From the NCBI GenBank assembly GCA_965117035.1, contig OZ220748.1, positions 2,351,992 to 2,415,991 on the forward strand: a DNA stretch of 64,000 nt, in the 5' to 3' direction. The notes beneath the pieces are model-generated. The model searched no databases and was not told where the DNA came from. It saw only the letters and a list, made by a program, of their open reading frames with translations. This DNA comes from Dehalococcoidia bacterium. GTDB taxonomy: Bacteria; Chloroflexota; Dehalococcoidia; Lucifugimonadales; CAZENU01. Shown in pieces: positions 1 through 64,000 of this stretch. Each line of letters opens with the position of its first letter. Within the stretch, counting starts at the first letter, position 1. The translations under genes and the position numbers were made by a program.

Positions 1-56
1 TGCCGGGACGATGTGGGGATGATCTGTGTTTTGGAGGTTGGCGTCCTCGGGAGCCG

Positions 57-302
57 CTAGCCTGTTGCCGCGGCCTCCAGGGCTGCGTCGAGCTTCGCCG
101 GGCTGTAGCCCACGACCTTCTCGTCGCCGATCACGGTCACCGGCGTAGTCCGGTAGCCCATGCCGACGAGGCTCTTCAGCGAGTCGACGCTCTGCGATAT
201 GTTGTGCTCGGTGAAGGGCACGCCCTTTCGTGAAAGATACACTTTCACCATATGGCACGGCCCTCAGCCGTTCGACGTGTATACCAGTATTTCGCTGCTC
301 AC
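57..302 (-). CDS. glutaredoxin/NrdH-like thioredoxin-fold protein, candidate selenoprotein (active site U-G-P-C; in-frame TGA at 266..264)
   Basis: Reading the - strand through the TGA at 266..264 gives VSSEILVYTSNG[TGA]GPCHMVKVYLSRKGVPFTEHNI...TTPVTVIGDEKVVGYSPAKL. This is a glutaredoxin/NrdH layout with the TGA at the first Cys of the CxxC. The GTG start at 302..300 overlaps the upstream stop (GTGA), with GAGGA 9 nt upstream. The ORF track shows only the 64 aa after the TGA. Confidence 0.6.
230..248 (-). promoter_or_regulatory. candidate SECIS-like hairpin downstream of TGA 266..264
   Basis: The mRNA reads GUGAAAG-UGUAU-CUUUCAC: a perfect 7-bp stem and a 5-nt loop with G at loop position 2. 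The loop begins 22 nt after the UGA, inside the spacing range described for bacterial SECIS elements. Confidence 0.4.
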
Positions 303-766
303 TCCGACTCGTCCTCCGGCGTCTTCTTCGACTTCGGCCGCTTCGTCGACGCCTTCCTTCTCTCTCTATTGTACTCCCGTTTGCCGCCGGTGTTGTCGAA
401 CAGCTCCTCGCCGACCTGCACCGCCTCGCCTATCGTCTGCTCGACCGCTCCCTCTTCCTCTTCGTACTTGCGAAGAAACTCTTCGCTCACGAAGAACAGT
501 CATATGCAGAACCCGTCCCTCTGGATGTCCTCGTGATGCCGTTCGCACGGGCATATTTTCTTGCGGTCCTCCACGGGATCGCCGCTGAGAGGCATTCAGG
601 GGCAGTACCGGTACCCGTGGACGCGCTCGTTTTCTCCCAGGCCTTCCTGGACGATTCGGACGACCTCGGCGTCCGGGAAGAACTCGTACGGCCCACGGTC
701 GACGTAGCGCTCCGAGAACGCCTTCGCCCTGTCGAACGCCTCCGACTCGCTCAGCTCTCTCGGCAT
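299..766 (-). CDS. ferredoxin:thioredoxin reductase catalytic-subunit-like Fe-S protein, candidate selenoprotein (in-frame TGA at 598..596 and 502..500)
   Basis: One frame is interrupted only by two TGAs: MPRELSESEAFDRAKAFSERYVDRGPYEFFPDAEVVRIVQEGLGENERVHGYRYCP[TGA]MPLSGDPVEDRKKICPCERHHEDIQRDGFCI[TGA]LFFVSEEFLRKYEEEEG...ESE. The layout CP[U]-X14-CPC-X12-CI[U]-LF parallels the FTR catalytic chain CPC-X16-CPC-X8-CHC-LF. ATG at 766 follows a GAGGAA motif. The ORF track reports only the last 63 aa. Confidence 0.65.
471..496 (-). promoter_or_regulatory. candidate SECIS-like hairpin(s) downstream of TGA 502..500
   Basis: There are two mutually exclusive hairpins: UUCUUCG-UGAG-CGAAGAG (496..479) and CGAAGA-GUU-UCUUCG (485..471). 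The second places a G-first apical loop 20 nt after the UGA. Confidence 0.35.
568..592 (-). promoter_or_regulatory. weak candidate SECIS-like structure downstream of TGA 598..596
   Basis: The lower stem CCUCU (592..588) pairs with GGAGG (572..568, one G.U). The upper stem CGG/CCG carries the loop CGAUC (581..577). It is short and interrupted, so support is low. Confidence 0.2.
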
Positions 767-1126
767 CTATTCCTCTTCACTCTTCCCAGCCGGCGCCGCC
801 GGCCCCATTCGCATCCTCGCGTGCATCTCGCACGGCATCCGGTGGAACGACTTCGCCTGCAGCATCAGCCGCCGCGCCAGCTCCGGCGCGGCCTTCCTCA
901 GATCGTCCATGCCCTTGTCCGGCGCCACCTCGACGCTCAGCAGGCCCGCCGTGCCGCAGTCGCACCGGACCGCGAAGAAGACCTTTTCGAAGCCCGGGTT
1001 CGCCGTCAGGTCCAGCTTGAACCCCGCCAGCGGTCTCAGGCCCGAGTCCTCGGGAAGAGCGTCGGAAATGACCGCGCGGATCTCGCTGACCGAGGGCCGC
1101 CGCCCGACGTCCGCTACGCTATCGAT
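767..1126 (-). CDS. hypothetical Cys-containing protein, open frame without a canonical start codon
   Basis: The coding-looking frame reads ...HIDSVADVGRRPSVSEIRAVISDALPEDSGLRPLAGFKLDLTANPGFEKVFFAVRCDCGTAGLLSVEVAPDKGMDDLRKAAPELARRLMLQAKSFHRMPCEMHARMRMG... It ends at TAG 769..767, directly abutting the ATG at 766. No ATG/GTG/TTG occurs before the internal GTG/ATG near 925-910. A GAGGTG motif lies 4 nt upstream of an in-frame ATC at 1126..1124. The 5' limit is uncertain. Confidence 0.35.
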   Translation of the reverse strand: MDSVADVGRRPSVSEIRAVISDALPEDSGLRPLAGFKLDLTANPGFEKVFFAVRCDCGTAGLLSVEVAPDKGMDDLRKAAPELARRLMLQAKSFHRMPCEMHARMRMGPAAPAGKSEEE

Positions 1127-1151
1127 ATGCCACCTCGCCGTGTCGAGGTCC

Positions 1152-1228
1152 TGGTGGGCGGTAAAGGATTTGAACCTATGACCTCTGCGATGTCAACGCA
1201 GCGCTCTAAACCACTGAGCTAACCGCCC
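1152..1228 (-). tRNA. tRNA-Val (anticodon GAC), CCA encoded
   Basis: Cloverleaf read by hand. Acceptor GGGCGGT/ACCGCCC, D stem GCUC/GAGC, anticodon stem CUGCG/CGCAG with loop UUGACAU, T loop UUCAAAU (one U.U in the T stem), discriminator A plus CCA. Confidence 0.9.
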
Positions 1229-1265
1229 TCCACTCCGCCTCGAGCCGCCGCATCGGCGGATCTGA

Positions 1266-1295
1266 AGTTTAGCAAGGCGACGAAGAGGCGGTCAA
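1266..1295 (-). promoter_or_regulatory. putative sigma70-type promoter upstream of tRNA-Val
   Basis: On the - strand: TTGACC (1295..1290), 18 nt, TAAACT (1271..1266). A CCGCCG-AUG-CGGCGG hairpin lies between it and the tRNA 5' end. Confidence 0.35.
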
Positions 1296-1372
1296 CACGA
1301 CTCAGGTGGGTCGCCGACTCGCTGGGCGCGCGCAACTCGCTCCTCCTGCATGCAGCAGATGATCTGCGTGGT

Positions 1373-2482
1373 TCATGGCAGATTCGCGTCAACCCAGTAT
1401 TCCATGTCGTCAAGGAACGAGGGATCGTACGCTTCGTCGACATGGTTATTGTTCCAGAGGCCGGACAGGCGAACCCGCTCCCGGTCGCTGAATCGGCCAA
1501 GCCATTCTCCGGACGGCCCGTCTATTGCGGGGCGGCCATAGCCACTCAGGATTGCTATAGCATTGCGCTCGATGAATCCGCGGCTGGAGTTGGGGCCGGG
1601 CTCATCGTCCACGCTCATCCACACAAAGGGCATCTGTCCGATATACTCGCTGACCGAGGCTTCGATGTCCGCTTCCGCACTACTGTCGGCAGTTCCGGCA
1701 ACGCCCCACGACTCTGGTAGCAGTACATCCCCCCGGCTGGCCAACGCAACACCTACGAGCAACCGAAAAACCGACCCTCGGTGGTTACCCAGGCCAGACC
1801 GGGACGTGCCGCGATGCTGAGAGAGCCGGCCCCACAGGGTACTTCGAGAGCCATGTCTCAGCGCATGAGCGCCGACGCGAACGACTCTGGGCCCGCCCCC
1901 CGAGCCTGATCTGGACTCACCATTCTCGTAGAAGAAATACACCCCGCGCCGCGGCCAGCTCATGCCGGCGCTGCAGCTTCGCAAGAATCTGGGGCCACCG
2001 ACCCGATCCGCAAGGTGATCGAGAAGCTCATAGAAGCGTACGGTGTCGCCCAACCGATCAGCCGCGCACATCCCAGTCAACCATCTCAATTGCTCCCCGA
2101 TCCTCATACCTTCCATCGGGACGCAGACGGCCAGACCACGACCTCGCAAAGATGGCTCCAAGAACTCTCGGTAGCGTCGACCAGCCAAAATCACTACCGA
2201 ATCGACACCATCCAAATGCGGCCCCAATTGTGCAAGCACTCTGCTGGCCCATTCACATCGGCCCGGCTTTGGAATGGCGTTCAGGGTGAGATCGTAAGGC
2301 GCGACTACTTGATCTGGATGTACAAGGCCGTGTTTGGCAGACAGTACGAACCAAGGCTGCCCGGTGCTATCTGCATAGTTGCGGGCCTTGCGGAACCAGG
2401 AAGACGTGTAAAGGTCTCTGGCAGGTGCTGGAACCGACCGCTTCCGCCCTACGCAAGACAGCAACTGGACTTGACGGAACAC
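1373..2482 (-). CDS. two-domain protein: N-terminal DUF6884-like domain fused to a GIY-YIG-type nuclease domain
   Basis: The N-terminus LLSCVGRKR...PARDLYTSSWF...WFVLSAKHGLVHPDQVVAPYDLTL resembles the DUF6884-type SCSxxK...ILSAKyGL...PYD pattern. The C-terminal half has GVYFFYENGE...RVVRVGAHAL...GNHRGSVFR...IERNAIAIL, which is GIY-YIG-like. GTG start with GGGGAG 5 nt upstream. Domain names are from memory and were not searched. Confidence 0.6.
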   Translation of the reverse strand: MFRQVQLLSCVGRKRSVPAPARDLYTSSWFRKARNYADSTGQPWFVLSAKHGLVHPDQVVAPYDLTLNAIPKPGRCEWASRVLAQLGPHLDGVDSVVILAGRRYREFLEPSLRGRGLAVCVPMEGMRIGEQLRWLTGMCAADRLGDTVRFYELLDHLADRVGGPRFLRSCSAGMSWPRRGVYFFYENGESRSGSGGGPRVVRVGAHALRHGSRSTLWGRLSQHRGTSRSGLGNHRGSVFRLLVGVALASRGDVLLPESWGVAGTADSSAEADIEASVSEYIGQMPFVWMSVDDEPGPNSSRGFIERNAIAILSGYGRPAIDGPSGEWLGRFSDRERVRLSGLWNNNHVDEAYDPSFLDDMEYWVDANLP

Positions 2483-6924: not shown

Positions 6925-10695
<3,771 letters not shown>

Positions 10696-10897
10696 TCGTT
10701 CCTCACTCCTGAATACTGGTGACTGTTAGAACGCGGAGGAGAGAGCCCGCGGGCGGGGTGAAAAATGGCGCATTTATAGCAGGGTGCAGAAACCGCGGAA
10801 TACGCCGTGGGGAGAGGCTGTGGACATAATCCAACATCGTAAGCCTAGCAAAGCCCAGCGCCGCCGTCAAGGCCATTTCGCCCCAATCTGAACAGTC

Positions 10898-10926
10898 TTG
10901 ACGCTACTTTGGACGAGCCATAGAAT
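10898..10926 (+). promoter_or_regulatory. putative promoter giving a leaderless NUDIX mRNA
   Basis: TTGACG (10898-10903), 17 nt, TAGAAT (10921-10926). The ATG at 10933 lies 6 nt after the -10 hexamer and there is no Shine-Dalgarno sequence. Confidence 0.45.
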
Positions 10927-10932
10927 GGCCCA

Positions 10933-11370
10933 ATGGCAAACAAGGGGCCCCCCGTCGAGCTCGTTTCGGCGGGCGGCGTCGTCGTCAGGAAGGGCCGCGG
11001 AGGCAACGAGGTCGTGCTGTGCGGCCGCACGGACCCGCTCCGGTGGGCGCTGCCGAAAGGCACGCCAGACCCGGGTGAAACCCGAGAGCAGACCGCCCTC
11101 CGAGAGGTGAGGGAGGAGACCGGCCTCGACGTCGAAATCGTCCGGCGCCTCGAAAGCATCCAGTACTGGTTCCTGAGGCCATCGGACGGCGCTCGATGCC
11201 ACAAGACCGTCCACTACTACCTCATGTCACCCACCGGAGGCGACACCTCGCGCCACGACGACGAGTTCGACGTCGTCGAGTGGTTTCCGCTCGCCCAGGC
11301 TGTGGAGACGATGACCTACCCGAACGAGGCCAGAATTGTTGAAAAGAGCGCTGCCGTGGCTGCGCAATAG
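10933..11370 (+). CDS. NUDIX hydrolase
   Basis: NUDIX box: LPKGTPDPGETREQTALREVREETGL. Confidence 0.85.
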   Translation: MANKGPPVELVSAGGVVVRKGRGGNEVVLCGRTDPLRWALPKGTPDPGETREQTALREVREETGLDVEIVRRLESIQYWFLRPSDGARCHKTVHYYLMSPTGGDTSRHDDEFDVVEWFPLAQAVETMTYPNEARIVEKSAAVAAQ

Positions 11371-17645: not shown

Positions 17646-20600
17646 ATGCCGGGCCACCTGTTCGCCAGCTACTTCCTGACCGACGGCATCCGGGACACAC
17701 CGGAGTGGAAGGCCTCGCTCGCCGACCCGGAGCGGTTCGCCGCCTTCGAGGAGGACATCCGCCGGCGCTACGAGGTCCTCGACGCCGCCGCCGACCCCAA
17801 CGAGGCGGTCACCGAGCAGGAGCTGGTCCGCCCCGTGCTCGAGCTGCTGGGATGGGAACACTACCTGCCGCAGCAGGGCGCCGCCCGCAATGAGGACATC
17901 CCCGACCACCTGCTCTTCCCCGACGCCGAAGCCAAGGCCCGCGCCGCCGCGAAACCCAACCCCGAGGCGAGATATCCGGACGCCATCGTCGTCGAAGAGA
18001 GCAAGCGGTTCGACCTGAACCTCGACGCCCGCGACCCCGACGCCCGCCAGCGCTCACGGACGCCGCACGGGCAGATACTCCGCTACCTGTCGACCGCCGA
18101 CGTCGAGTCGGAGAGCCGCATCCGCTGGGGCATCCTGACCAACGGCCGCGTGTGGCGCCTCTACGACTACCGCGCCCGCCCTCGCGCTTCCGGCTACTTC
18201 GAGACCGACCTGGGCGAGGCGCTGCAACCGGACAACGAGGACGACCTGCGCCTCTTCTGGCTGCTGCTGCGCCGGAGCTCCTTCACGCCGCAGGACGGCG
18301 CGACCTTCAGCTTCCTGGAGGCGGCGCTGGCGGAGGGCCGCCGACACGAACAGCAGGTAGCCCAGGACATCTCCGCCGTGGTGTTCGAGCGTGTCTTCCC
18401 GACCCTCGTCCGGGCCCTGGCAGCAGCCACGGACGAGGATCTCCCGGCCGTCCGCGAGGCCGCTCTCATCTTCCTGTACCGGCTGCTCTTCGTGCTCTAC
18501 GCCGAGGACCGGGGCCTGCTCCCCGTCAACGACTCGCGGTACGAGGACTACGGTCTGCGCAAGCCGGTGCGAGAGGACGTCGCGCGCCGGATGGACGCCG
18601 GCGCCACCTTCTCCTACACCGCCTCGAAATACTACGGCCACTTGGAGACGCTCTTCGGATTGATCGACCAGGGCGACCCGTCCATCGGCCTCCCGCCCTA
18701 CAACGGCGGCCTCTTCTCCCGGGACGCCGCGCCGCTGCTGGAACGTCCGCCTCTCGGACGCGGCCGTCGCCTTCATGGTCTACGACCTCAGCCACGCCGA
18801 GACCGCCGGCGGCAGGCGCTTCATCAACTACCGCGACATGTCCGTGCAGCAGCTCGGCTCGATCTACGAGCGCCTGCTGGAGCGGGAGCCCGTCAGGGAC
18901 GAGCTGGGCATGATCGTCGTGCGTCCCAACAGCTACGCCCGCAAGGACAGCGGCAGCTTCTACACGCCCCAGGAGCTCGTCGACCTGATCGTCGACCGCA
19001 CCCTGAAGCCACTTGCCGATGAGCGTCTGGCCGCCTTCGAGAAGAAGTCCAAGGAGCTGAAGCGCGACCATAGGCCGAAGGACGTGCGGGAGGCCGAGCT
19101 GCGCGATCTGGACCCGGCTGAGGCCGTGCTCGACCTGAAGGTGCTCGACCCGGCGATGGGCAGTGGCCACTTCCTCGTCACCGCCGTCGACTTCCTGTCC
19201 GACTATGTCGCCGAGCTGGTCGAGTACGTGCCCGCGGTGCCCGAATGGCTCGCCGGCGAGTACGCGTCGCCGCTCGTGGAGCGCATCGCCGCAATCAGGC
19301 GCGACATCCTCGAACGGGCGCGGCAGGCCGACTGGGTGATCGACGAGGCGCAGCTCACCGACGAGGCCATCGTCCGTCGGATGGTGCTGAAGCGCTGCAT
19401 CTACGGCGTCGACAAGAACCCGCTCACCGTCGAGCTCGCCAAGGTCTCGCTGTGGCTGCACAGCTTCACCGTCGGCGCGCCGCTGTCGTTCCTCGACCAC
19501 CACCTGCGCACAGGCGACTCGCTCGTCGGTATGCGCGTGCTGGAGGCGACACAAGAGCTGAACCGCCTTGGCGGACTGTTTGCGAGCTCGGCCATTTCCG
19601 GCGCCGAGAAGGCAACATGCGGCATGCAGCGCATCGAGGAGATGTCGGACGCCGACGTGTCCGAGGTCCGAGAGTCCGCCTCGCTGTTCCAGAACGTCGA
19701 GGAGACGACCGCCGATCTGCGCGGTCTGCTCGACTTCATGTGCGGCCTCCGCTGGCTGACCGCAGGAATGGGGAAGAATGAGCGGGAGTCCTTCGAGTCG
19801 CCGATTATGGACGCGTTGGGCTGGGAACTGGACGACGCGTTCAACCTGTTGGCCAATGGTCCGGAGGTCTTCATATACGAAGATTCACTTGAAGCGACCT
19901 TCGAGTCGCTGTGGCTCGAGGTCAAGTCGGTCGCCAAGCGCGAGAGCTTCCTGCACTGGGAGGTCGCATTCCCCGGCGTCTGGCACGGATGGCAGGACGC
20001 GCACCCGGCTGGGGGCTTCGACGCCGTGATCGGCAACCCGCCCTGGGACCGTATCGAACAACAGGAAGTGGAGTGGTTCGCCATGCGCGACGAAGAGATC
20101 GCGCTGGCAAGCACTGGAGCCGCGCGCAAGGCGATGATCCAAAGGCGCCTGCGCCAAGGCGATAGACTCGCTCTTGAGTACGAGCAGGTGCGGGCAAGAG
20201 CGGCGACGTTGCGCGCACTGGTTCGAGACTCGGACGAGTATCCGCTCCTGAGCGGGGGGCGCATCAACCTCTACTCGCTCTTCGTCGAGCGCGCGATGGG
20301 CCTCGTCAAGCCCGACGGCTTCGTCGGCCTGCTCACGCCGTCCGGCATATACGCCGACAAGACGGCGGCGAAGTTCTTTCGGTCGATCTCGACCGGCGGG
20401 CGCGTGTCAGGCCTGTTCGACTTCGAGAACCGGCGGCTCGGAACTGGGCTGCCGCCGTTCTTCCCAGACGTCGACTCGCGCTTCAAGTTCTGCGCGTTCG
20501 TCCTCGGCGGCGATGAGCGGCGCTTCAACGAGACGGCTTGCGCCTTCTTCCTCCCCGATACCGAGACCATCGACGACCCGGACCGCTGCTTCCCGCTGAC

Positions 20601-21682
20601 GCCCGACGACTTCGCCCGCGTCAACCCGAACACCGGCACTGCGCCCGTCTTCCGCACGCGACGCAGAGATCACCCGCCGCATCTACGAGCGGCATCCCGT
20701 CCTGGTCAACCGCTCAGGCAGCAAGATACGCCGCGCATGGCCGGTGAGGTTCATGCAGGGGCTGTTCAACATGACGTCCGACTCCAATCTGTTCAGGACG
20801 TCGGAGCAACTCGACTCCATGGGCTTCTACCCCGTCCAGGGCAACCGATGGAAGAGAGGAGGGAAACTGTATCTGCCGTTGTACGAAGGAAAAATGGTGC
20901 AACTGTATGATCACCGCGCCGCAGGCGTATTGGCAAATCCTGAGAACCTAAACCGTCCGAATCAGCCTCTCGAGGCCCGAACTGATGAACACGCTGATCC
21001 CAACTGGTTGCCGACACCCCTGTATTGGGTCGACGAGGGATCGTTCGACTGGCCAAATCACCTAGGCTGGACAATAGCGTTCAAGGATGCAACCGCCCCT
21101 ACGAATGCACGAACCATGATCGCCGCACTAGTATCGGCTCAAAGCTTCGGCAACACTCTCCCCATCCTGATGCCCAATTCATCTGAACTAGACACCTACA
21201 AGAAACGGGCATGGCTACTGGTTGGCTGCCTCAATTCAATGGCGTACGACTTCGTGGCCCGACAGAAGGTTCAAGGCCAACATCTCAACTGGTTCATCGT
21301 GGAGCAGCTTCCCGTCGTCGCGGCCGACGACTACGGCCGGCGGTTCGGCGACACGACCGCCCGCGAGCTCGTCCGCGACCATGTGCTGCGGCTCACCTAC
21401 ACGGCGCACGACATGGCGCCGTTCGCGCGCGACCTCGGGTACGACGGCCCGCCGTTCACCTGGGACGAGGAGGAGCGCCGGCACCTGAGAGCGCGGCTCG
21501 ACGCGCTCTACTTCCACCTCTACGGCCTCTCGCGCGACGACGCCGACTACGTCCTGGGCACCTTCCCCATCGTCCGCCGCGAGGACGAGAAGGAGTTCGG
21601 CAGCTACCGCACCCGCGACCTCATCCTCGCCTACATGAACGCCCTCGCCGCCGGCGACACCGAAACGGTCGTCTCGGCCTAG
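17646..21682 (+). pseudogene. type IIG restriction-modification enzyme (PD-(D/E)xK nuclease + N6-adenine methyltransferase + specificity region) disrupted by two frameshifts
   Basis: Three consecutive ORFs (17646.., 18775.., 20744..) read as one protein. The N-terminus has PDHLLF...VVEESKR. The methylase motifs are VLDPAMGSGHFLV and VIGNPPWDRI. The C-terminal part has LYEGKMVQLYDHRAA... The frame changes by +1 near 18745 (LLER|RLSDAAVAF) and near 20660 (VFRTR|AEITRRIYE). Confidence 0.75.
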
Positions 21683-31083: not shown

Positions 31084-32112
31084 TCAGCGTGACCGGAAGT
31101 GGTCCCAGCCGCCGGTGTCGACGACCAACGGCTGGCCGCGCTCGTCGATGACGGTGACGCCGGCGTCTTTGTGCACTATCTCCCCGATGACGGACAGCGG
31201 CGCGCCACCCTCTCGGGCGACCTTCTCCAGCGTGTCCACGGTCGCCGCCGCCAGGAGCTCGTAGTCCTCGCCGCCGGCGAGTACCAGCGACAGCCAGTCG
31301 TCCGGGTAGGCGGAGCGCAGGAAGGCGTCCGCGGGCAGTTGGTCCGCCAGGACGACGGCGCCGACGCCGCTGGCGCCGCACAGCTTCCCGAGGTCGTCCA
31401 GCAGCCCGTCGCTGACGTCGATTGCGGCGTGGGCGCCGTAACGGGCGAGCGCCTGGCCCTCGGACAGCCGCGGCTCCGGACGGACGTGCGCGGCACGGAG
31501 ATGGGCGGCGGTCTCGCCGTCGAGCCTGTGCCGCTCAGCCATCATCTTCAGTCCGCCGGCCGAGCGGCCGAGGTATCCGGTGACCACGACGAGGTCGCCG
31601 AGGCGCGCGCCGTGCCGGGAGAGCAGGGGCTGGCCGGCTGTGCCGTCGCCGTCGGCCTGCGCCACGCCGGTGAGGGCCACGGAGACGAAGAAGGTCGGGC
31701 TGCGGACGATGTCGCCGCCGACGAGCGCGCATCCGTACCGTTCGCACGCGTCGAGCATGCCCTCGTACATCTCTACGAGATCGTCCTCCCTCAGGCCGTA
31801 GGGCAGGCCGAGGCCGACCACGGCGGAGACGGGCAGGCAGCCCATCGCCGCCACGTCGCTCAGGTTGACGGCGATGGACTTCCAGCCCAGGTCGCGCCAG
31901 CCCGTCGAGGCGAGATCGAAGTGGATGCCCTCGACCAGCACGTCGTTGGTGATCACGTCTACGCCGGCCGGTCTCTCCCAAGCCGCGGCGTCGTCGCCCA
32001 GGCCGATCTTGAGGCGATGCCCGTCGGCGGCCGGCCGGTCGAGCCCGCGCCGCTCGATCAGCCCGGTCAGCACGCGAATAAGGTCGAACTCCCCGATGTC
32101 CTCTACGCGCAT
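31084..32112 (-). CDS. thiL: thiamine-monophosphate kinase
   Basis: MRVEDIGEFDLI...GDDAA...DVLVEGIHF...GGDI AIR-synthase-like pattern. An internal ATG at 32112 was chosen. Confidence 0.85.
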   Translation of the reverse strand: MRVEDIGEFDLIRVLTGLIERRGLDRPAADGHRLKIGLGDDAAAWERPAGVDVITNDVLVEGIHFDLASTGWRDLGWKSIAVNLSDVAAMGCLPVSAVVGLGLPYGLREDDLVEMYEGMLDACERYGCALVGGDIVRSPTFFVSVALTGVAQADGDGTAGQPLLSRHGARLGDLVVVTGYLGRSAGGLKMMAERHRLDGETAAHLRAAHVRPEPRLSEGQALARYGAHAAIDVSDGLLDDLGKLCGASGVGAVVLADQLPADAFLRSAYPDDWLSLVLAGGEDYELLAAATVDTLEKVAREGGAPLSVIGEIVHKDAGVTVIDERGQPLVVDTGGWDHFRSR

Positions 32113-32282
32113 GCCGCAGATTATACCCGCGCGGACGCCACTCCGGCGCCGCCCCATGACGACGGGAACCCGCCGGCGCCGCGATTGCATCAAATCGTAT
32201 AGGATGGACTGGACGGCCGGTGTCCCCGCCGCTTCAGCAGTCCACGATGGGTCCGCCGTACGCAATCGAAACGGGAGCGAAA

Positions 32283-52825: not shown

Positions 52826-54001
52826 ATGGTACGTCGGCGTACGCCGCCCTCCGCAGCCGTTGCTTCCTGGGCGCCGGCCGCGGTCTTGTATCATGGTACC
52901 GGGAGTCTTCATTTGCCCGGCAGCGCCAAGTTCTGGATTGGAATCGCCGTCAGCGTCGTCTTCCTGGCGCTGTTCGTCTTCACCGTAGACCTGGAGCGCT
53001 TTCTCGACGCGCTCTCGCGGGCCGACTACGCCCTCCTCGCCCCCGCGACCGCGCTCTACCTGGTGTCGCTGCTGTTCAGGACCCTGCGCTGGCAGCGGCT
53101 GCTGAGACACCTCAAGCGCGTGAGCGTCGTCCGCCTGTATCCGGTCGTCGTCGTCGGGTACATGGCGAACAACCTGCTGCCGATGCGCATCGGCGAGCTC
53201 GTGCGCAGCTACTACGTCGGCGAGCGGGAGGGCGTCAGCAAGACGACGGCGCTGATGACGATCGTCGTCGAGCGCCTGCTGGACGCGCTGACGCTGCTGG
53301 CCATGGTCGCCGTGGTCGCCCTCTTCGTCCCCGTGCTCGGAGTGGCCGAGGGGCTCGGACGGCTCTCCAGCGTTCCGTGGCCGCTGCTCGTCGCCGCGGT
53401 GACGCTGCCGTTCATCGCCGGGTTCACCGTCCTCGTGCTGACGGCGCTGGCGCCCGACAGGGCGGGACGGTGGGCGAAGACCGCCCTGCGTCCCCTTCCA
53501 CGTGGCCTGGAGTCGCGCGGCGCCGACACGGTCGACATGCTGCTCGGCGGCCTCATCTCGCTGCGAAGCCCCCGGAGCGTCGTCGTGCTCTTCCTGCTGT
53601 CGGTGCCGGTCTGGCTGTTCGAGGCGGGGCTGTTCATGGTCATCGCCTACTCGTTCGACCTTGACCTCGCCTTCGACAACGTCTACGAGATGGTGGCCGC
53701 CATCGTGCTCGTGATGGCCATCGCCAATATCGGCGCCTCCGTGCCGGCCGCGCCCGGCGGCATCGGCCTGTTCGAGCTGATCGCCCGCGAGACGCTCGTG
53801 CTGCTCCCGCTGGCCGCCGTGGACAGGGCCGACGCCGGGGCGTACGCCGCTGTCGTGCACGCCGTCCTGCTGGTCCCGATGATCGTGCTCGGGCAGGTCT
53901 TCCTGTGGACGCAGAACGTCTCCCTCGGCAGCCTGTCGCGGGCGGGCCGGTCGATGGCGTCCGAGCGCGCCGCGGTCGCCGGGGCTGAGGAGGCGTCGTG
54001 A
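52826..54001 (+). CDS. flippase-like / lysylphosphatidylglycerol-synthase TM-region (UPF0104) membrane protein
   Basis: RWQRLL...YPVVVVGYMANNLLPMRIGELVRSYY. Confidence 0.7.
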   Translation: MVRRRTPPSAAVASWAPAAVLYHGTGSLHLPGSAKFWIGIAVSVVFLALFVFTVDLERFLDALSRADYALLAPATALYLVSLLFRTLRWQRLLRHLKRVSVVRLYPVVVVGYMANNLLPMRIGELVRSYYVGEREGVSKTTALMTIVVERLLDALTLLAMVAVVALFVPVLGVAEGLGRLSSVPWPLLVAAVTLPFIAGFTVLVLTALAPDRAGRWAKTALRPLPRGLESRGADTVDMLLGGLISLRSPRSVVVLFLLSVPVWLFEAGLFMVIAYSFDLDLAFDNVYEMVAAIVLVMAIANIGASVPAAPGGIGLFELIARETLVLLPLAAVDRADAGAYAAVVHAVLLVPMIVLGQVFLWTQNVSLGSLSRAGRSMASERAAVAGAEEAS

Positions 54002-60975: not shown

Positions 60976-62027
60976 CCGGCGACTACGATGTCGCTCCGGC
61001 GGACGTCGGCCGGGGTGGCGCGGCCGCTGAATGCGAGCACACGGTCGAGCTCAGCGCGAAGTATCTCCAGCGCCCTGCGCACGCCATCCTCGCCGCCCCA
61101 AGCGAGGCCCCAGTGGACGGGCCGTCCGACGAACACGGCGCGCGCCCCCATCGCCAGCACCCTGAAGACGTCCAGGCCGGAGCGGACGCCGGAGTCCATG
61201 TAGACCTCCAGCCGGTCGCCGACCGCGTCGGATATCTCCGGCAGCAGCTCGATGGCCGACAGGCCTCCGTCGAACTGCCTGCCGCCGTGGTTGGAGACGA
61301 CGATGCCGTCGACGCCGTGCTCGACGCACAGGGCCGCGTCCTCGACGTTCCTGATGCCCTTCAGGACCAGCGGCAGGTCGCCCGAGAGCGTCCTGAGCCA
61401 GTCGAGCCTGTCCCAAGTGATGTTCGGCGGCGCCCAGCGCACGGCGCCGTCCTCGCCCAGCAGGTCGGGCCTGTCGCGCAGGCTGCCGAACATCGGGCCC
61501 ACGTCCGCCGGCTTCGGCGACGCGTGCGCCTCGAGCGGGAACGGCCCGAGCACGTCGACCGTCAGTACGACGGCCGCGTACCCGGCCGGCTTCAGCCGGG
61601 GCAGCAGCTCCTCGCTGACGCCGTCGTTGTAGTGGATGTGCTGGAACCAGATCGGCCCGGACGCCGCGTCGGCTACCTCCTCCAGGCCGTAGCCGGAGCC
61701 TACGGGAAGCGCCATCAGCGTGCCCGCGGCGCCCGCCGCCCGCGCGGTCGCCAGCTCGCCGTCCGGGTGGCTTCCGCACTGGCCGCCGGCGGGCGCGCAC
61801 ATCACCGGAAAGCTTATCCGCTGTCCGAGCACCGTCGTCGACAGCTCGCGGTCGGCGACGGAGACGAGAAGCCGCGGGTCGAGGGCTATCTCGTCGAGCT
61901 TTGCCCTGTTGCGGTCGCGGGTCCAGTTGCCGCCCCAGCCGCGCCGGACGAAGTCGCGCTGCGTGGGCGACATCCCGGCCTCGGCGAGCCGCTGCAGCTC
62001 GGCTATGGTTGTCGGCTCTGCTGTCAA
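60972..62027 (-). CDS. FMN-dependent alpha-hydroxy-acid dehydrogenase/oxidase (LldD / glycolate oxidase family)
   Basis: LVLKGI...GIVVSNHGGRQFDG...DSGVRSG. The TTG start at 62027 overlaps the upstream stop (TTGA). Confidence 0.8.
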   Translation of the reverse strand: MTAEPTTIAELQRLAEAGMSPTQRDFVRRGWGGNWTRDRNRAKLDEIALDPRLLVSVADRELSTTVLGQRISFPVMCAPAGGQCGSHPDGELATARAAGAAGTLMALPVGSGYGLEEVADAASGPIWFQHIHYNDGVSEELLPRLKPAGYAAVVLTVDVLGPFPLEAHASPKPADVGPMFGSLRDRPDLLGEDGAVRWAPPNITWDRLDWLRTLSGDLPLVLKGIRNVEDAALCVEHGVDGIVVSNHGGRQFDGGLSAIELLPEISDAVGDRLEVYMDSGVRSGLDVFRVLAMGARAVFVGRPVHWGLAWGGEDGVRRALEILRAELDRVLAFSGRATPADVRRSDIVVAG

Positions 62028-63223
62028 CGTGCGCCGACTTCCGCCCGCAGGGCGTCGATGAGCCGGCCGACCTCTTCCTCGTCGTTGAAGGCGGCCACGG
62101 ATATGCGCATGCCGGTCCGCTCCAGGTCGAGCGGCGCGGTCAGCCACTGGAACTTGACCACGGCGTTGTGCCGCTCGTAGACGCGCGCCACGAGCCGCTG
62201 CAGGTCCTCGGCGCTGTGGCCGTCGAAGGTCAGCGTCGTGATGCCGGCGGAGCGTCCGGGCTCCGTCGGCGTCAGCACCTCGACGCCGCCGATCCGCGAC
62301 GCCTCCTCCCTGAGAGTGCGGGAGAGTCCGGCGACCCTGGCGGCTATCGCGTCCGTGCCGAGCTCGTCGATGATCTCGACGGCCCTGCCGAGCCCGATGG
62401 CCATAGCCGCGTTGTGCGTCCCTCCCTCGGCGCGGTCGTGCGCCGTCGGGGCGGGAACGGGTGCGTCCGGCATGCTCCAGGGCCCGCGGTCGGGCAGCGG
62501 GTCCGGCATGAAGTCGGCGAGCGCGTCGGGGGAGACCCACAGGATGCCGACGCCCATAGGTCCCAGCAACCACTTGTGGCCGGAGCCCACCATGAAGTCG
62601 CACCCCAGGGCGGGCACGTCGACCGGGAGCTGCCCCAGCGACTGCGCCGTGTCTACGACGACGGGCACGCCGCGCTCGTGGGCAAGCGCGGAGGCCTCGG
62701 CGACCGGGAGTATCCTGCCGTCCGGCGACGCCACGTGGCTGACGCACAGCAGCCGTGTGCGGTCGGTGATGGCCGATTTCAGCGCCTCCAGGAACTCCGC
62801 GTCTCCCTGGTCCGCCTCGACGACGCGGAGCCGCGCGCCGGCCGTCTTCTCGAGGCCGGTGCCGAGGGTGACGGTGCTGACGTGCTCCAGCGACGTGATC
62901 AGCAGCTCGTCGCCGTCCCTCCAGTCGATGCTGCGGGACACGAGCCGCATAGCCTGGGTCGTGTTGGGCGTCAGCGCGACCTCGTCTGCGCCCGCCCCGA
63001 TGAACGACGCCACGCGCGCCCTGGCCGCCGTCTCTCGCCTTGCCTGCTCCGCCTTGACCGACGGCACGGAGTGGTAGTGGGCCTCCAGCGCCATCTCGTC
63101 CCGGACCGCGTCCAGCACAGGGTCGGGAGTCGGGCCGTGGCTGCCGACCTGGAAGTAGGCGACGTTCCTGGTGATCGGCAGATCATCCCTGAGCTTCTCG
63201 AACGTCATCCGGTCAGGCGGCAT
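62024..63223 (-). CDS. class V aminotransferase (cysteine desulfurase / isopenicillin-N-epimerase-like)
   Basis: ...VSHVASPDGRILPV...VDTAQSLG...GSGHKWLLGP (PLP lysine motif). GAGGAGAAG RBS before the ATG at 63223. Confidence 0.8.
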   Translation of the reverse strand: MPPDRMTFEKLRDDLPITRNVAYFQVGSHGPTPDPVLDAVRDEMALEAHYHSVPSVKAEQARRETAARARVASFIGAGADEVALTPNTTQAMRLVSRSIDWRDGDELLITSLEHVSTVTLGTGLEKTAGARLRVVEADQGDAEFLEALKSAITDRTRLLCVSHVASPDGRILPVAEASALAHERGVPVVVDTAQSLGQLPVDVPALGCDFMVGSGHKWLLGPMGVGILWVSPDALADFMPDPLPDRGPWSMPDAPVPAPTAHDRAEGGTHNAAMAIGLGRAVEIIDELGTDAIAARVAGLSRTLREEASRIGGVEVLTPTEPGRSAGITTLTFDGHSAEDLQRLVARVYERHNAVVKFQWLTAPLDLERTGMRISVAAFNDEEEVGRLIDALRAEVGAR

Positions 63224-63267
63224 CTTCTCCTCACCATGGCAGGCGCCGGGTGTCGGTGTCGGGATTG

Positions 63268-63330
63268 CCGCGCGCCCCTCGGTACACGCCGACGAAGCGT
63301 CGGCGCTACTCGGGGTAAACGGGTAGCAGA
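63268..63330. repeat. fragment of the intergenic repeat family
   Basis: CCTCGGTACACGCCGACGAAGCGTCGGCGCTACTCGG is an inverted, diverged copy of the CCGAGTGCCCCGACGCTTCGTCGGGGTGTATCGAGG core of the MITE-like unit. Confidence 0.5.
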
Positions 63331-63405
63331 GAACGCGACCACGCCTCCCGCCATTGTGGAAGCAGCGACCGGCCGAATCACGACGTTGGCTTCGGCCGGC
63401 GGCCG

Positions 63406-63978
63406 TCAGCTCTCGTTGATGATGATCGTCGCGATGGCGTCGCCCGGCCCTCTCGCCGTCTGCGGGTCCCGGATCGAGATGCCGTTGACTACGTCCATGC
63501 CCTCGGTCACCTTGCCGAACACCGTGTGACACGACCCTTGCGTGCAGTCCTTCGCGGTACCGTCCGGGTTGTAGCCGTCCAGGAACGGCGTCTCGACGAA
63601 GGTGATGAAGAACTGGCTGCCGTTGGTTCCCCGGCCGCCCTTGATTCCGCTGTTCGCCATAGACAGGATGCCGGGGCTGTCGTGCCGCCGCTCGGGGCTC
63701 AGCTCGTTGTCGAACTTGTAGCCCGGGCCCCCGGTGCCGGTGCCCGTGGGGTCTCCTCCCTGCGCCATGAAGTTCTCGATGACCCTGTGGAAGGTCACGC
63801 CGTTGTAGAAGCCCTCGCGGGCCAGGAAGACGAAGCTGTTCACCGTGTTCGGGGCCTCTTTCGCGTAGAGCTCGGCGGTGAACTGCCCGCCCTTCTCCAG
63901 GCAGAAGGTCGCGGTGTAGCTCTTGTTCGGGTCGATCGTCATCGCCGGGGGCGCGCTGTAAGTCTTGCTTGTGCTCAT
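63406..63978 (-). CDS. peptidyl-prolyl cis-trans isomerase, cyclophilin type
   Basis: [25 protein letters not shown]...MANSG...GSQFFI. Confidence 0.92.
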
Positions 63979-64000
63979 CGGAATGTCGTCCTCGCAACTC

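What the first reader, a model, noticed from the sequence alone, without database searches (positions are those of the whole stretch)
299..766. FTR catalytic-subunit homologue with both redox-active cysteines encoded by in-frame TGA (candidate diselenide site)
Seen: a single - strand frame runs 766..299, interrupted only by TGA at 598..596 and TGA at 502..500. The ORF track therefore reports just the last 63 aa.

Seen: the translation parallels the ferredoxin:thioredoxin reductase catalytic chain throughout. AFSERYVDRGPYEFFPDAEVVRIVQEGL...GYRYCP[TGA]-X14-CPC-X12-CI[TGA]LFF matches the canonical ...CPC-X16-CPC-X8-CHC-LF.

Established (Synechocystis FTR structure): Cys1 of motif 1, both Cys of motif 2 and Cys1 of motif 3 ligate the 4Fe-4S cluster. 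Cys2 of motif 1 and Cys2 of motif 3 form the redox-active disulfide.

Seen: the two TGAs fall exactly on that disulfide pair, and all four cluster ligands are normal Cys codons. Hairpins follow both TGAs (479-496/471-485 and 568-592). TGA is an ordinary stop elsewhere in the window (ftsY, thiL, mug and this gene itself).

Inference: the TGAs encode selenocysteine, giving a Sec-Sec (diselenide) centre next to the Fe-S cluster. Natural diselenide sites are very rare. I do not recall FTR-type proteins among the usual lists of bacterial selenoprotein families, but I cannot search. The motif-3 His is Ile here.
Basis: partly seen in the sequence, partly recalled or inferred. Interest (0 to 1): 0.9.

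Follow-up and report, generated by a model that had tools for sequence, protein, structure and literature searches.

The report
Known double-selenocysteine ferredoxin-thioredoxin-reductase homologue
This gene encodes an iron-sulfur disulfide reductase whose two redox-active cysteines are both replaced by selenocysteine; the reading is correct, but the family was described in 2008 and NCBI already has a curated model for it, so only its conserved gene neighbours may be new.

Summary
A single minus-strand frame, 766..299, is interrupted only by TGA at 598..596 (codon 57) and 502..500 (codon 89).

The two TGAs align without gaps to the second Cys of motif 1 (CPC) and motif 3 (CxC) in solved FTR-family structures. 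All four cluster-ligand cysteines are ordinary Cys codons. TGA occupies both columns in 23 of 24 intact orthologues, all from Dehalococcoidia; one has TGC/TGA and a distant homologue has Cys/Cys. Synonymous sites are frozen in a hairpin 13 nt after each TGA. TGA is the normal stop for 10 other genes in the window.

It is not new. The protein scores 217 bits (cutoff 160) against NCBIfam NF041072, "FtrB family double-selenoprotein". It is 77% identical to the two-Sec FTR of Zhang & Gladyshev 2008.

Beyond the finding, the gene sits in a conserved three-gene module:
- an orphan protein with an invariant Cys3His signature, with no family or fold match;
- FtrB(U,U) itself;
- a glutaredoxin/NrdH-like selenoprotein with the motif U-GPC.

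I found no report of this module. No Sec-decoding genes lie in the window. Selenium insertion and the diselenide remain untested.

The parts
299..766 (-). FtrB family double-selenoprotein gene: 155 codons, ATG at 766..764, stop TGA at 301..299. Cluster ligands are Cys55, Cys72, Cys74 and Cys87; the redox pair is Sec57/Sec89. The C-terminus is a Lys/Glu-rich tail.
   Evidence: sequence. Pfam PF02943, 75.7 bits. NCBIfam NF041072, 217 bits against a cutoff of 160, model positions 2-121 of 121; alignment to 4TPU, 7PWE, 7BZK and 1DJ7; 77% identity to the 2008 GOS sequence.
596..598 (-). In-frame TGA 1 (codon 57, predicted Sec). It aligns with the second Cys of motif 1 (CPC), the solvent-exposed nucleophile of FTR.
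   Evidence: TGA in 23 of 24 orthologues and TGC in L002. Cys in L025.
563..582 (-). SECIS-like hairpin 1: GCGAUCC / loop CGUGGA / GGACCGC, starting 13 nt after TGA 1. In the window it carries one A.C mismatch.
   Evidence: coordinates; 94.6% of cells paired against 14-48% when the partner is slid; stem codons have entropy H=0-0.7 and loop codons H=1.3-1.6. On its own, the window sequence does not fold better than shuffles (z=-0.04).
500..502 (-). In-frame TGA 2 (codon 89, predicted Sec). It aligns with the second Cys of motif 3 (CHC/CYC), the cluster-interacting Cys of FTR.
   Evidence: TGA in 24 of 24 orthologues. Cys in L025.
470..486 (-). SECIS-like hairpin 2: GCGAAGA / loop GUU / UCUUCGC, starting 13 nt after TGA 2.
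   Evidence: 98.6% paired, and the only changes are wobble-compatible. AGC GAA GAG UUU CUU CGC have H=0-0.5, against H=1.9-2.1 for Arg codons elsewhere.: -20.3 kcal/mol, z=-2.45.
57..302 (-). Glutaredoxin/NrdH-like selenoprotein gene of 81 codons. Its GTG start at 302..300 overlaps the FtrB stop as GTGA, and its stop is TAG at 59..57. The active site is U13-G-P-C16. It is the probable substrate of FtrB(U,U).
   Evidence: Pfam Glutaredoxin, 47.6 bits against a cutoff of 22.9; below all NCBIfam cutoffs; closest solved structures are 7C10 and then the NrdH redoxins; linked to FtrB(U,U) in 23 of 24 loci.
264..266 (-). In-frame TGA 3 (codon 13 of the Grx-like gene), at the N-terminal nucleophilic Cys position of CxxC.
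   Evidence: TGA in all 23 linked Grx-like genes.
230..248 (-). SECIS-like hairpin 3: GUGAAAG / loop UGUAU / CUUUCAC, starting 15 nt after TGA 3.
   Evidence: 98.8% paired, wobble-only changes.: -24.5 kcal/mol, z=-3.43, and 0 of 200 shuffles fold as well.
767..1126 (-). Orphan small protein gene directly upstream of FtrB(U,U), with stop TAG at 769..767 abutting the FtrB ATG. Its invariant residues form CxCGT...C..H (a Cys3His signature). The start is uncertain: there is no ATG/GTG/TTG upstream of the conserved core, and ATC at 1126..1124 follows GAGGUGG. It may be a metal or Fe-S partner or electron donor.
   Evidence: present in 23 of 24 loci; no NCBIfam or Pfam family. AlphaFold2 pLDDT 85, pTM 0.73; no PDB fold match; 80 clusters among 1.84 billion representatives; invariant C55, C57, F94, C99, H102; the same module at 43% identity; start-codon analysis.

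Best explanation
The gene at 766..299 (minus strand) encodes a member of the FtrB family of double selenoproteins. This is an FTR/FDR-type [4Fe-4S] disulfide reductase of a Dehalococcoidia bacterium. Both UGA codons are recoded to selenocysteine by SelB acting on a short hairpin 13 nt downstream of each.

Shown:
- the frame and the positions of the TGAs;
- membership of the curated family;
- the Cys/Sec column correspondence;
- purifying selection across and after the TGAs;
- RNA-level constraint on the hairpins;
- normal use of TGA as a stop in other genes.

Inferred by analogy with FTR and FDR chemistry:
- Cys55, Cys72, Cys74 and Cys87 hold a [4Fe-4S] cluster.
- Sec57 and Sec89 form a diselenide in the oxidised enzyme.
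- One electron from a low-potential donor cleaves that bond. Sec89 then bonds to a cluster iron and the exposed Sec57 selenolate attacks the substrate. A second electron releases the product.
- The likely substrate is the co-transcribed Grx/NrdH-like protein with a U13-GPC16 site, giving a selenium-to-selenium relay.
- The conserved orphan Cys3His protein upstream is a candidate subunit or electron donor.
For: - NCBIfam NF041072 FtrB_double_U (equivalog): 217 bits against a cutoff of 160, full model length.
- 77% identity to the published two-Sec GOS sequence.
- Gapless alignment to 4TPU (E=6.3e-13) and 7PWE, and alignment to 7BZK and 1DJ7, puts the TGAs on the second Cys of CPC and of CxC.
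- 23 of 24 orthologues are TGA/TGA, one is TGC/TGA, and all frames are intact. L025 is Cys/Cys.
- Codons with a conserved amino acid but varying synonymous sites lie between and after the TGAs: Arg +19 and +26 with H about 1.9-2.1, and Thr +53 with 4 codons.
- Synonymous sites are frozen in the stems and free in the loop. Pairing is 94.6-98.8% in the three hairpins against much lower values when the partner is slid.
- TGA terminates 10 other family-supported genes in the window.
- The three TGAs rank first to third in a window-wide TGA-plus-hairpin scan.
- Dehalococcoidia MAGs carry up to 46-49 selenoproteins.
- The Grx(U) gene is linked in 23 of 24 loci.
- A Sec-Grx (U13xxC16) reducing a Sec enzyme has a published precedent.
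Against: - No tRNA-Sec, selA, selB or selD was found in the 64 kb window. The one AIR-synthase-fold gene is thiL, not selD.
- No two-sided compensatory covariation supports any of the three hairpins. Support comes from invariance and wobble-only changes.
- In the window, hairpin 1 has an A.C mismatch and does not fold better than shuffles (z=-0.04).
- No experiment anywhere, as far as I could find, shows selenium in this protein, a diselenide, or the Fe-S cluster.
- The substrate and electron-donor assignments rest on gene linkage only.
Confidence: 0.9

Rival explanations
1. The gene is a decaying pseudogene and the TGAs are inactivating nonsense mutations.
For: Mechanical ORF calling splits the gene into fragments. 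Public gene callers truncate it in the same way (P0010-P0013; a 56-aa FeThRed_B call).
Against: The same two TGAs occur at the same two catalytic columns in 23 of 24 independent loci, with no other disruption. Amino-acid conservation with synonymous variation persists after both TGAs. The protein matches the curated family above its cutoff over the full model length.
Confidence: 0.01
2. TGA is reassigned genome-wide, for example to Trp as in code 4/25, or is generally read through, so the residues are not selenocysteine.
For: Nine database homologues are deposited with W at both columns.
Against: Those W residues are gene-caller artefacts; the DNA in L001 is TGA. TGA ends 10 other family-supported genes in the window, including rpoB and thiL, as well as this gene itself. 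Trp at both redox-active positions would abolish the chemistry that defines the fold. Cys, not Trp, is the alternative residue in homologues.
Confidence: 0.01
3. The TGAs are sequencing or assembly errors for TGC/TGT.
For: A single-base change would restore Cys. L002 does have TGC at column 1.
Against: Identical TGAs are present in 24 independent assemblies from different projects and technologies, including long-read complete chromosomes, and in 2008 Sanger reads.
Confidence: 0.005
4. Only the second TGA is efficiently recoded as Sec. The first is poorly decoded in this organism, or is decoded differently (partial termination, or Cys insertion), so the active site is often a selenenylsulfide or the protein is truncated. 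Output would then depend on selenium supply.
For: In the window, hairpin 1 has an A.C mismatch and a fold no better than shuffles. 7 of 21 distinct sequences carry a mismatch in the two central A-U pairs of that stem. Natural C/U variants exist (L002, P0010 and P0011).
Against: TGA at column 1 is retained in 23 of 24 orthologues. Stem codons after TGA 1 show frozen synonymous sites: GGC, GAG and CGC have H=0. The hairpin starts at exactly the same 13-nt offset and begins with the same GCGA as hairpin 2.
Confidence: 0.06

Closest known systems
FtrB family double-selenoprotein (NCBIfam NF041072), i.e. the Sec-containing FTR catalytic-subunit homologue of Zhang & Gladyshev 2008 (GOS read JCVI_READ_1093012271142)
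   Same: The family is the same. The score is 217 bits against a cutoff of 160. Identity to the published sequence is 77% over 101 aa, with an identical core GYRYCPUMPLSGDPVEDRKKICPCERHHEDI.RDGFCIU.FFVSEE. Both Sec fall at the redox-active pair.
   Different: Nothing essential differs. Here the full-length gene is seen with its charged C-terminal tail, a taxonomic assignment to Dehalococcoidia, and its genomic context. The 2008 read was partial and had no context.
Archaeal/bacterial ferredoxin:disulfide reductase (FDR), e.g. Methanosarcina acetivorans FDR (PDB 4TPU), and PDB 7PWE
   Same: These are the closest solved structures (E=6.3e-13 and 2e-10). The alignment is gapless through all three Cys motifs with the same spacing, and motif 3 has a non-His residue. 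FDRs are Fe-S enzymes related to FTRc that reduce atypical thioredoxins. From my own memory of Wei et al. 2015, which I could not read here, an FDR also reduces an NrdH-like redoxin for class III ribonucleotide reductase.
   Different: FDR has Cys, not Sec, at both redox positions and Tyr rather than Ile in motif 3. 4TPU carries a rubredoxin domain, for which the window protein gave no Pfam hit. 7PWE has an extra N-terminal region of about 100 aa.
Plant/cyanobacterial ferredoxin:thioredoxin reductase catalytic subunit (PDB 1DJ7, 2PVO, 7BZK)
   Same: It shares the FeThRed_B domain and the six-cysteine CPC...CPC...CxC scheme, with four cluster ligands and a redox pair beside the cluster. The assignment of the disulfide and the ligands is established knowledge from Dai et al. 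2000 and 2007, and cites it.
   Different: The sequence match is only E of about 1e-4 and needs gaps. The motif spacings are X16/X8 against X14/X12. Motif 3 is CHC against CIU. The classical enzyme is a heterodimer with a variable subunit, and no homologue of that subunit was detected next to this gene.
Clostridium oremlandii selenoprotein Grx1 (U13xxC16) reducing selenoprotein MsrA ('tandem use of selenocysteine', Kim et al. 2011)
   Same: The downstream gene is a Grx-fold protein with Sec at residue 13, the first position of CxxC. Its closest solved structure is the glutaredoxin 7C10; that this entry is the C. oremlandii protein is my inference, not something I checked. A Sec redoxin partnering a Sec enzyme is the same logic.
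   Different: The active site is UGPC (thioredoxin-like) rather than the motif CPHC seen in 7C10. Here the Sec enzyme would sit upstream as the reductase of the redoxin, not downstream as its client. No biochemistry exists for this pair.
Natural diselenide proteins such as SelL (UxxU)
   Same: Two Sec are placed so as to form a redox-active Se-Se bond. The precedent is cited as reference 40.
   Different: SelL is a thioredoxin-fold UxxU protein of aquatic eukaryotes. Here the two Sec are 32 residues apart and would sit against a [4Fe-4S] cluster.

Membership tests
NCBIfam NF041072 FtrB family double-selenoprotein | Whole-protein score above the curated equivalog cutoff, over the full model length | tested here: met
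   217 bits against a cutoff of 160, E=4.2e-65, model positions 2-121 of 121.
NCBIfam NF041072 FtrB family double-selenoprotein | In-frame TGA at both redox-active Cys columns | tested here: met
   TGA at codons 57 and 89. These align to the second Cys of CPC and of CxC in solved structures. The published family member has the same columns.
NCBIfam NF041072 FtrB family double-selenoprotein | Selenium actually incorporated at both positions | not testable with these tools
   This needs 75Se labelling or mass spectrometry. I found no published experiment.
Pfam PF02943 FeThRed_B (FTR catalytic chain fold) | Domain hit above the gathering score, with the four cluster-ligand cysteines present | tested here: met
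   75.7 bits against 22. Cys55, Cys72, Cys74 and Cys87 align to the ligand cysteines.
Classical plant/cyanobacterial FTR | His in motif 3 (CHC) | tested here: not met
   Motif 3 is C-I-U in the window and in all 24 orthologues. The nearest solved relatives have CYC.
Classical plant/cyanobacterial FTR | Heterodimer with a variable subunit (FeThRed_A) | tested here: inconclusive
   The conserved upstream gene has no Pfam match at E up to 10 except a chance-level hit, and no PDB fold match, although the variable-subunit chain of the heterodimer structures should be in that library. The rest of the genome is not available.
FDR (ferredoxin:disulfide reductase, 4TPU type) | Closest sequence relationship, with the same motif spacing | tested here: met
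   E=6.3e-13, gapless over query residues 11-109.
FDR (ferredoxin:disulfide reductase, 4TPU type) | Fused rubredoxin domain | tested here: not met
   FeThRed_B was the only Pfam hit. The C-terminus is a Lys/Glu-rich tail.
Bacterial selenoprotein gene (SelB/SECIS-dependent UGA recoding) | Cys in homologues at the TGA column, with conservation on both sides of the TGA | tested here: met
   L002 has TGC at column 1. L025 is Cys/Cys. PDB homologues have Cys. Synonymous variation with conserved amino acids continues downstream of both TGAs.
Bacterial selenoprotein gene (SelB/SECIS-dependent UGA recoding) | Stem-loop shortly downstream of the UGA with G/U in the apical loop | tested here: met
   There are 7-bp stems starting 13, 13 and 15 nt after the three UGAs, with loops CGUGGA, GUU and UGUAU. 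Pairing is 94.6-98.8% across relatives and synonymous sites are frozen. Caveats: there are no compensatory changes, hairpin 1 has an A.C mismatch in the window, and no bacterial SECIS predictor was available. Rfam gave no hit.
Bacterial selenoprotein gene (SelB/SECIS-dependent UGA recoding) | selA, selB, selD and tRNA-Sec present in the genome | tested here: inconclusive
   None was found in the 64 kb window: the only tRNA is tRNA-Val, 20 large ORFs were scanned, and the AIR-synthase-fold gene is thiL. The remainder of the genome was not available. The class Dehalococcoidia includes very selenoprotein-rich MAGs.
Glutaredoxin / NrdH-like UxxC selenoprotein (downstream gene) | Glutaredoxin fold hit, with the TGA at the first Cys of CxxC | tested here: met
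   Pfam PF00462, 47.6 bits against 22.9. The TGA aligns to the first Cys of CPHC in 7C10.
NCBIfam YruB / NrdH / UXX-star (seleno)protein equivalogs (downstream gene) | Score above the curated cutoff | tested here: not met
   YruB 64.7 against 88.55; NrdH 56.8 against 85.75; UXX-star families about 40 against 66-100.

The most novel reading that the evidence does not exclude
The unit of function is not the FtrB(U,U) gene alone. It is a conserved three-gene module that I did not find described: an orphan Cys3His small protein, FtrB(U,U), and a Grx/NrdH-like U-GPC protein. On this reading the orphan protein is a new metal or Fe-S subunit or dedicated electron donor. Electrons would pass from it through the [4Fe-4S]/diselenide centre to a selenenylsulfide redoxin, a relay that carries three selenocysteines and is confined to a Dehalococcoidia lineage.
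Probability: 0.35. Interest if true: 0.55.

Novelty: already known. Interest (0 to 1): 0.3.

Why it matters
The family is among the few predicted natural diselenide sites. As far as I could find, it would be the only one placed against an iron-sulfur cluster. In the FTR mechanism one redox residue bonds directly to a cluster iron, so this enzyme would form an Fe-Se bond during turnover. That chemistry has been predicted since 2008 and appears never to have been tested.

The family was already known, so this window adds three practical things:
- full-length genes from a defined lineage, with many orthologues including complete chromosomes;
- a probable physiological substrate, the linked Sec-glutaredoxin;
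- a candidate partner protein of unknown fold.

Together these give a concrete set of genes to express for biochemical work. The analysis also exposes an annotation problem: public gene calls for this family are mostly truncated at the TGAs or mistranslated with Trp.

Tried and rejected
- **GC3-based scan for other TGA-interrupted genes.** It was swamped by off-frame noise in this 68% GC window and I abandoned it.
- **First strict TGA-plus-hairpin scan.** It returned nothing because its length and coding thresholds excluded even the three true positives. I relaxed them, where the three TGAs ranked first to third and nothing else was credible. The hit at 53986 is an ordinary stop that overlaps the next gene's start.
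- **selD candidate.** The AIR-synthase-fold gene at 31084..32265 turned out to be thiL (TIGR01379, 279.7 bits against a cutoff of 184; selD 60 against 125).
- **Covariation tests.** None of the three hairpins shows a two-sided compensatory change. I therefore do not claim covariation support.
It is less conserved than the stem at 582..563 (79.9% against 94.6% paired).
- **Rfam.** Only the tRNA was found in 1..1300. As far as I know its SECIS models are of the eukaryotic type, so this result is uninformative.
- **Orphan upstream protein.** It has no Pfam, NCBIfam or PDB fold match.
- **Papers not held.** Wei et al. 2015 (PMC4697749) and Prakash et al. 2018 (PMC6005431) could not be read. No paper mentioning 7PWE was found.
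- **An NCBIfam call containing the letter U was rejected by the tool.** I repeated it with C.
Full report
**1. The observation**

On the minus strand, one frame runs from ATG at 766..764 to TGA at 301..299. It has 155 sense codons and is interrupted only by TGA at 598..596 (codon 57) and TGA at 502..500 (codon 89). The mechanical ORF list shows only fragments of 56 and 63 aa. With the two TGAs written as Cys, Pfam FeThRed_B matches at 75.7 bits against a cutoff of 22, E=3.5e-21, over profile positions 3-103 of 106.

**2. Do the TGAs fall on the redox-active pair?**

A search of all PDB sequences aligns the protein without gaps to 4TPU (E=6.3e-13) and 7PWE (E=2e-10). It aligns with small gaps to plant and cyanobacterial FTR catalytic chains (7BZK, 1DJ7, 2PVO; E about 1e-4). 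In every case codon 57 lies on the second Cys of the first CPC and codon 89 on the second Cys of motif 3, which is CYC or CHC. By established knowledge of Synechocystis FTR (Dai et al. 2000, 2007), these are the Cys57-Cys87 disulfide, and the other four cysteines ligate the [4Fe-4S] cluster. The 2008 paper quoted below says the same. The protein is closer to the archaeal/bacterial FDR type than to photosynthetic FTR. It shares the FDR motif spacing, and motif 3 has a non-His residue in both.

**3. Comparative evidence that the TGAs are decoded**

The first protein search returned nine homologues with W at both columns, two with Cys at column 1 that end at column 2, one that ends at column 1, and one that starts after column 2. 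The underlying DNA shows these are gene-calling artefacts. In L001 both W codons are TGA. In L002 the codons are TGC and TGA, and the frame continues to a proper stop.

A scan of one genome per species found 22 close relatives. All are Dehalococcoidia MAGs and several are complete chromosomes. Across 24 family members, including the window, every frame is intact. Column 2 is TGA in all 24. Column 1 is TGA in 23 and TGC in one. A distant homologue from Aegiribacteria (30% identity) is Cys/Cys.

Codon-level analysis shows protein-level purifying selection between and after the TGAs. Arg +19 and Arg +26 are invariant as amino acids but use 5-6 codons (H about 1.9-2.1). Thr +53, Ile +54 and Asp +55, after the second TGA, behave the same way. 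TGA is the normal stop of 10 other family-supported genes in the window, including rpoB and thiL, and of this gene itself. These results exclude a pseudogene, a sequencing error and a genome-wide reassignment of TGA.

**4. Recoding signals**

After each TGA there is a 7-bp stem that starts 13 nt downstream:
- TGA 1: GCGAUCC / CGUGGA / GGACCGC, at 582..563.
- TGA 2: GCGAAGA / GUU / UCUUCGC, at 486..470.

Synonymous sites in the stems are nearly frozen. The CGC (Arg) and CUU (Leu) codons have H=0 even though each amino acid has six codons. The two loop codons after TGA 1 vary freely, with H=1.3 and 1.6. The stems are paired in 94.6% and 98.6% of cells across relatives, against 14-71% when the partner is slid.

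There are three caveats. No pair shows a two-sided compensatory change. In the window, stem 1 has an A.C mismatch and the local fold is no better than shuffles (z=-0.04). The apical loops all contain GU about 21-24 nt after the UGA. From my own knowledge this resembles the E. coli fdhF SECIS. No bacterial SECIS predictor was available, and Rfam gave nothing here.

**5. Is it known?**

Yes. Zhang & Gladyshev (PLoS Genet 2008, PMC2398784) reported Sec-containing FTR catalytic-subunit homologues in the GOS metagenome. [quoted passage not shown] Their Dataset S2 sequence has the same core and is 77% identical to the window protein over 101 aa. The family is listed in the 2022 and 2026 selenoproteome reviews, the latter giving NCBIfam NF041072 with 2 Sec. 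Scanning NCBIfam directly, the window protein matches NF041072 "FtrB family double-selenoprotein" (an equivalog model) at 217 bits against a cutoff of 160, over the whole model. BSepDB lists Dehalococcoidia MAGs among the most selenoprotein-rich bacteria, with 46-49 selenoproteins each. I found no experimental characterisation of the family.

**6. What surrounds it**

*Downstream gene.* The next gene (302..57) starts with a GTG that overlaps the FtrB stop as GTGA. It carries its own in-frame TGA at 266..264: VSSEILVYTSNG-U-GPCHMVKVYL.... It is a glutaredoxin-fold protein (Pfam 47.6 bits against 22.9) but falls below every NCBIfam cutoff; YruB and NrdH score best. Its TGA lies on the first Cys of CxxC, and the closest solved structures are the glutaredoxin 7C10 and then the NrdH redoxins. 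A strong hairpin follows the TGA (z=-3.43; 98.8% paired). This U-GPC gene is linked to FtrB(U,U) in 23 of 24 loci. It is either immediately downstream or divergently placed about 0.5 kb upstream of the module.

*Upstream gene.* Directly upstream of FtrB(U,U), on the same strand, 23 of 24 loci have a gene of 100-120 aa (window 769 to about 1126).
- It has no Pfam or NCBIfam match.
- Its AlphaFold2 model is confident (pLDDT 85, pTM 0.73), but it has no fold match in the PDB (best E=0.16, TM at most 0.31).
- The family is small: 80 clusters at 50% identity among 1.84 billion representatives.
- Its only invariant residues across members down to 26% identity are C55, C57, F94, C99 and H102. This is a Cys3His pattern, typical of a metal or Fe-S site.
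- A member at 43% identity sits in the same three-gene arrangement on contigs of 39-140 kb whose other neighbours differ.
- In the window, no canonical start codon precedes the conserved core. ATC at 1126..1124, after GAGGUGG, is a possible start.

The selenoproteome papers I could read do not mention this pairing. The 2008 paper lists only Prx/SelW-type neighbouring selenoprotein genes.

**7. Mechanism**

Shown: family membership, the column correspondence, the recoding context and the gene linkage.

Inferred by analogy with FTR and FDR: Cys55, Cys72, Cys74 and Cys87 bind a [4Fe-4S] cluster, and Sec57-Sec89 form a diselenide in the oxidised state. One-electron reduction cleaves that bond, with Sec89 bonding to a cluster iron and Sec57 attacking the substrate. 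A second electron completes the cycle.

The linked U13-GPC16 redoxin is the most likely substrate. The precedents are FDR reducing atypical thioredoxins and the selenoprotein Grx1 (U13xxC16) of Clostridium oremlandii serving a selenoprotein MsrA, described as "tandem use of selenocysteine". The orphan Cys3His protein may be a subunit or electron donor, but this rests on linkage and the conserved residues only.

**8. Sec machinery**

The window holds only tRNA-Val(GAC). I scanned 20 large ORFs and none is selA, selB or selD. The AIR-synthase-fold gene is thiL. None of the 24 related loci carries a tRNA-Sec within 10 kb. A 64 kb window cannot decide this question, so it remains the main open test.

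**9. Verdict**

However, the feature is a member of a selenoprotein family that was described in 2008 and has a curated NCBI model, so its novelty is nil at the family level. The remaining interest lies in two things: the lack of any biochemistry for a predicted diselenide beside an Fe-S cluster, and the conserved three-gene module with an orphan Cys3His protein, for which I found no report.

Noticed in passing
window 57..302 (- strand); TGA at 266..264: A third in-frame TGA lies in the gene immediately downstream. This is a glutaredoxin/NrdH-like protein with active site U13-GPC16. Its GTG start overlaps the FtrB stop, a strong hairpin follows the TGA, and it is linked to FtrB(U,U) in 23 of 24 loci. 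It falls below all NCBIfam family cutoffs.
   Followed up: yes
window 767..~1126 (- strand): An orphan gene of about 100-120 aa lies directly upstream of FtrB(U,U) in 23 of 24 loci. It has an invariant CxCGT...C..H (Cys3His) signature, a confident AlphaFold2 model, and no Pfam, NCBIfam or PDB fold match. The family has only about 80 clusters at 50% identity. In the window no ATG/GTG/TTG precedes the conserved core, so the start may be ATC at 1126..1124.
   Followed up: partly
window 1152..1228 (- strand); L003-L005, L024 about 9460-9630 and 10810-11030; L001 1576..1652; L006 10748..10824: In the closest relatives the three-gene module is bracketed by tRNA-Val(GAC) upstream and tRNA-Asp(GTC) downstream. 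The window shows the tRNA-Val and ends before the position where a tRNA-Asp would be expected.
   Followed up: no
P0001-P0013; L026-L028 10358..10528 and 10837..11028: Public gene calls for this family are systematically wrong. Some are translated with Trp at both TGAs, as under code 4/25. Others are cut into fragments: a 56-aa FeThRed_B, 88-aa proteins ending at TGA 2, and a 63-aa glutaredoxin that starts after its TGA.
   Followed up: yes
L002 397..834; P0010, P0011: A natural variant has Cys (TGC) at column 1 and Sec (TGA) at column 2, which would give a selenenylsulfide rather than a diselenide. On that contig there is no adjacent Grx(U) or orphan gene, and a Desulfoferrodoxin N-terminal domain gene lies nearby.
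   Followed up: partly
window 31084..32265 (- strand): An AIR-synthase-fold gene could be mistaken for selD. It is thiL (TIGR01379, 279.7 bits against a cutoff of 184; selD 60 against 125).
   Followed up: yes
window 62024..63997 (- strand): A SufS-like class-V aminotransferase ORF (the cysteine desulfurase / selenocysteine lyase superfamily) scores below all NCBIfam equivalog cutoffs. It has an apparent N-terminal extension of about 270 aa that may be an artefact of ORF extension in high-GC DNA. The ORF runs to within a few bases of the window end.
   Followed up: no
window 1373..2482 (- strand): A 369-aa protein with an N-terminal DUF6884 domain (E=8.9e-49) and an uncharacterised C-terminal half lies between rpoC and the tRNA-Val.
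   Followed up: no
window 17646..21682 (+ strand): Several large ORFs here (458, 711 and 312 aa) gave no Pfam hit or were not scanned. Their GC3 is lower than that of neighbouring genes (0.78-0.83 against about 0.95), which hints at foreign or mobile DNA.
   Followed up: no
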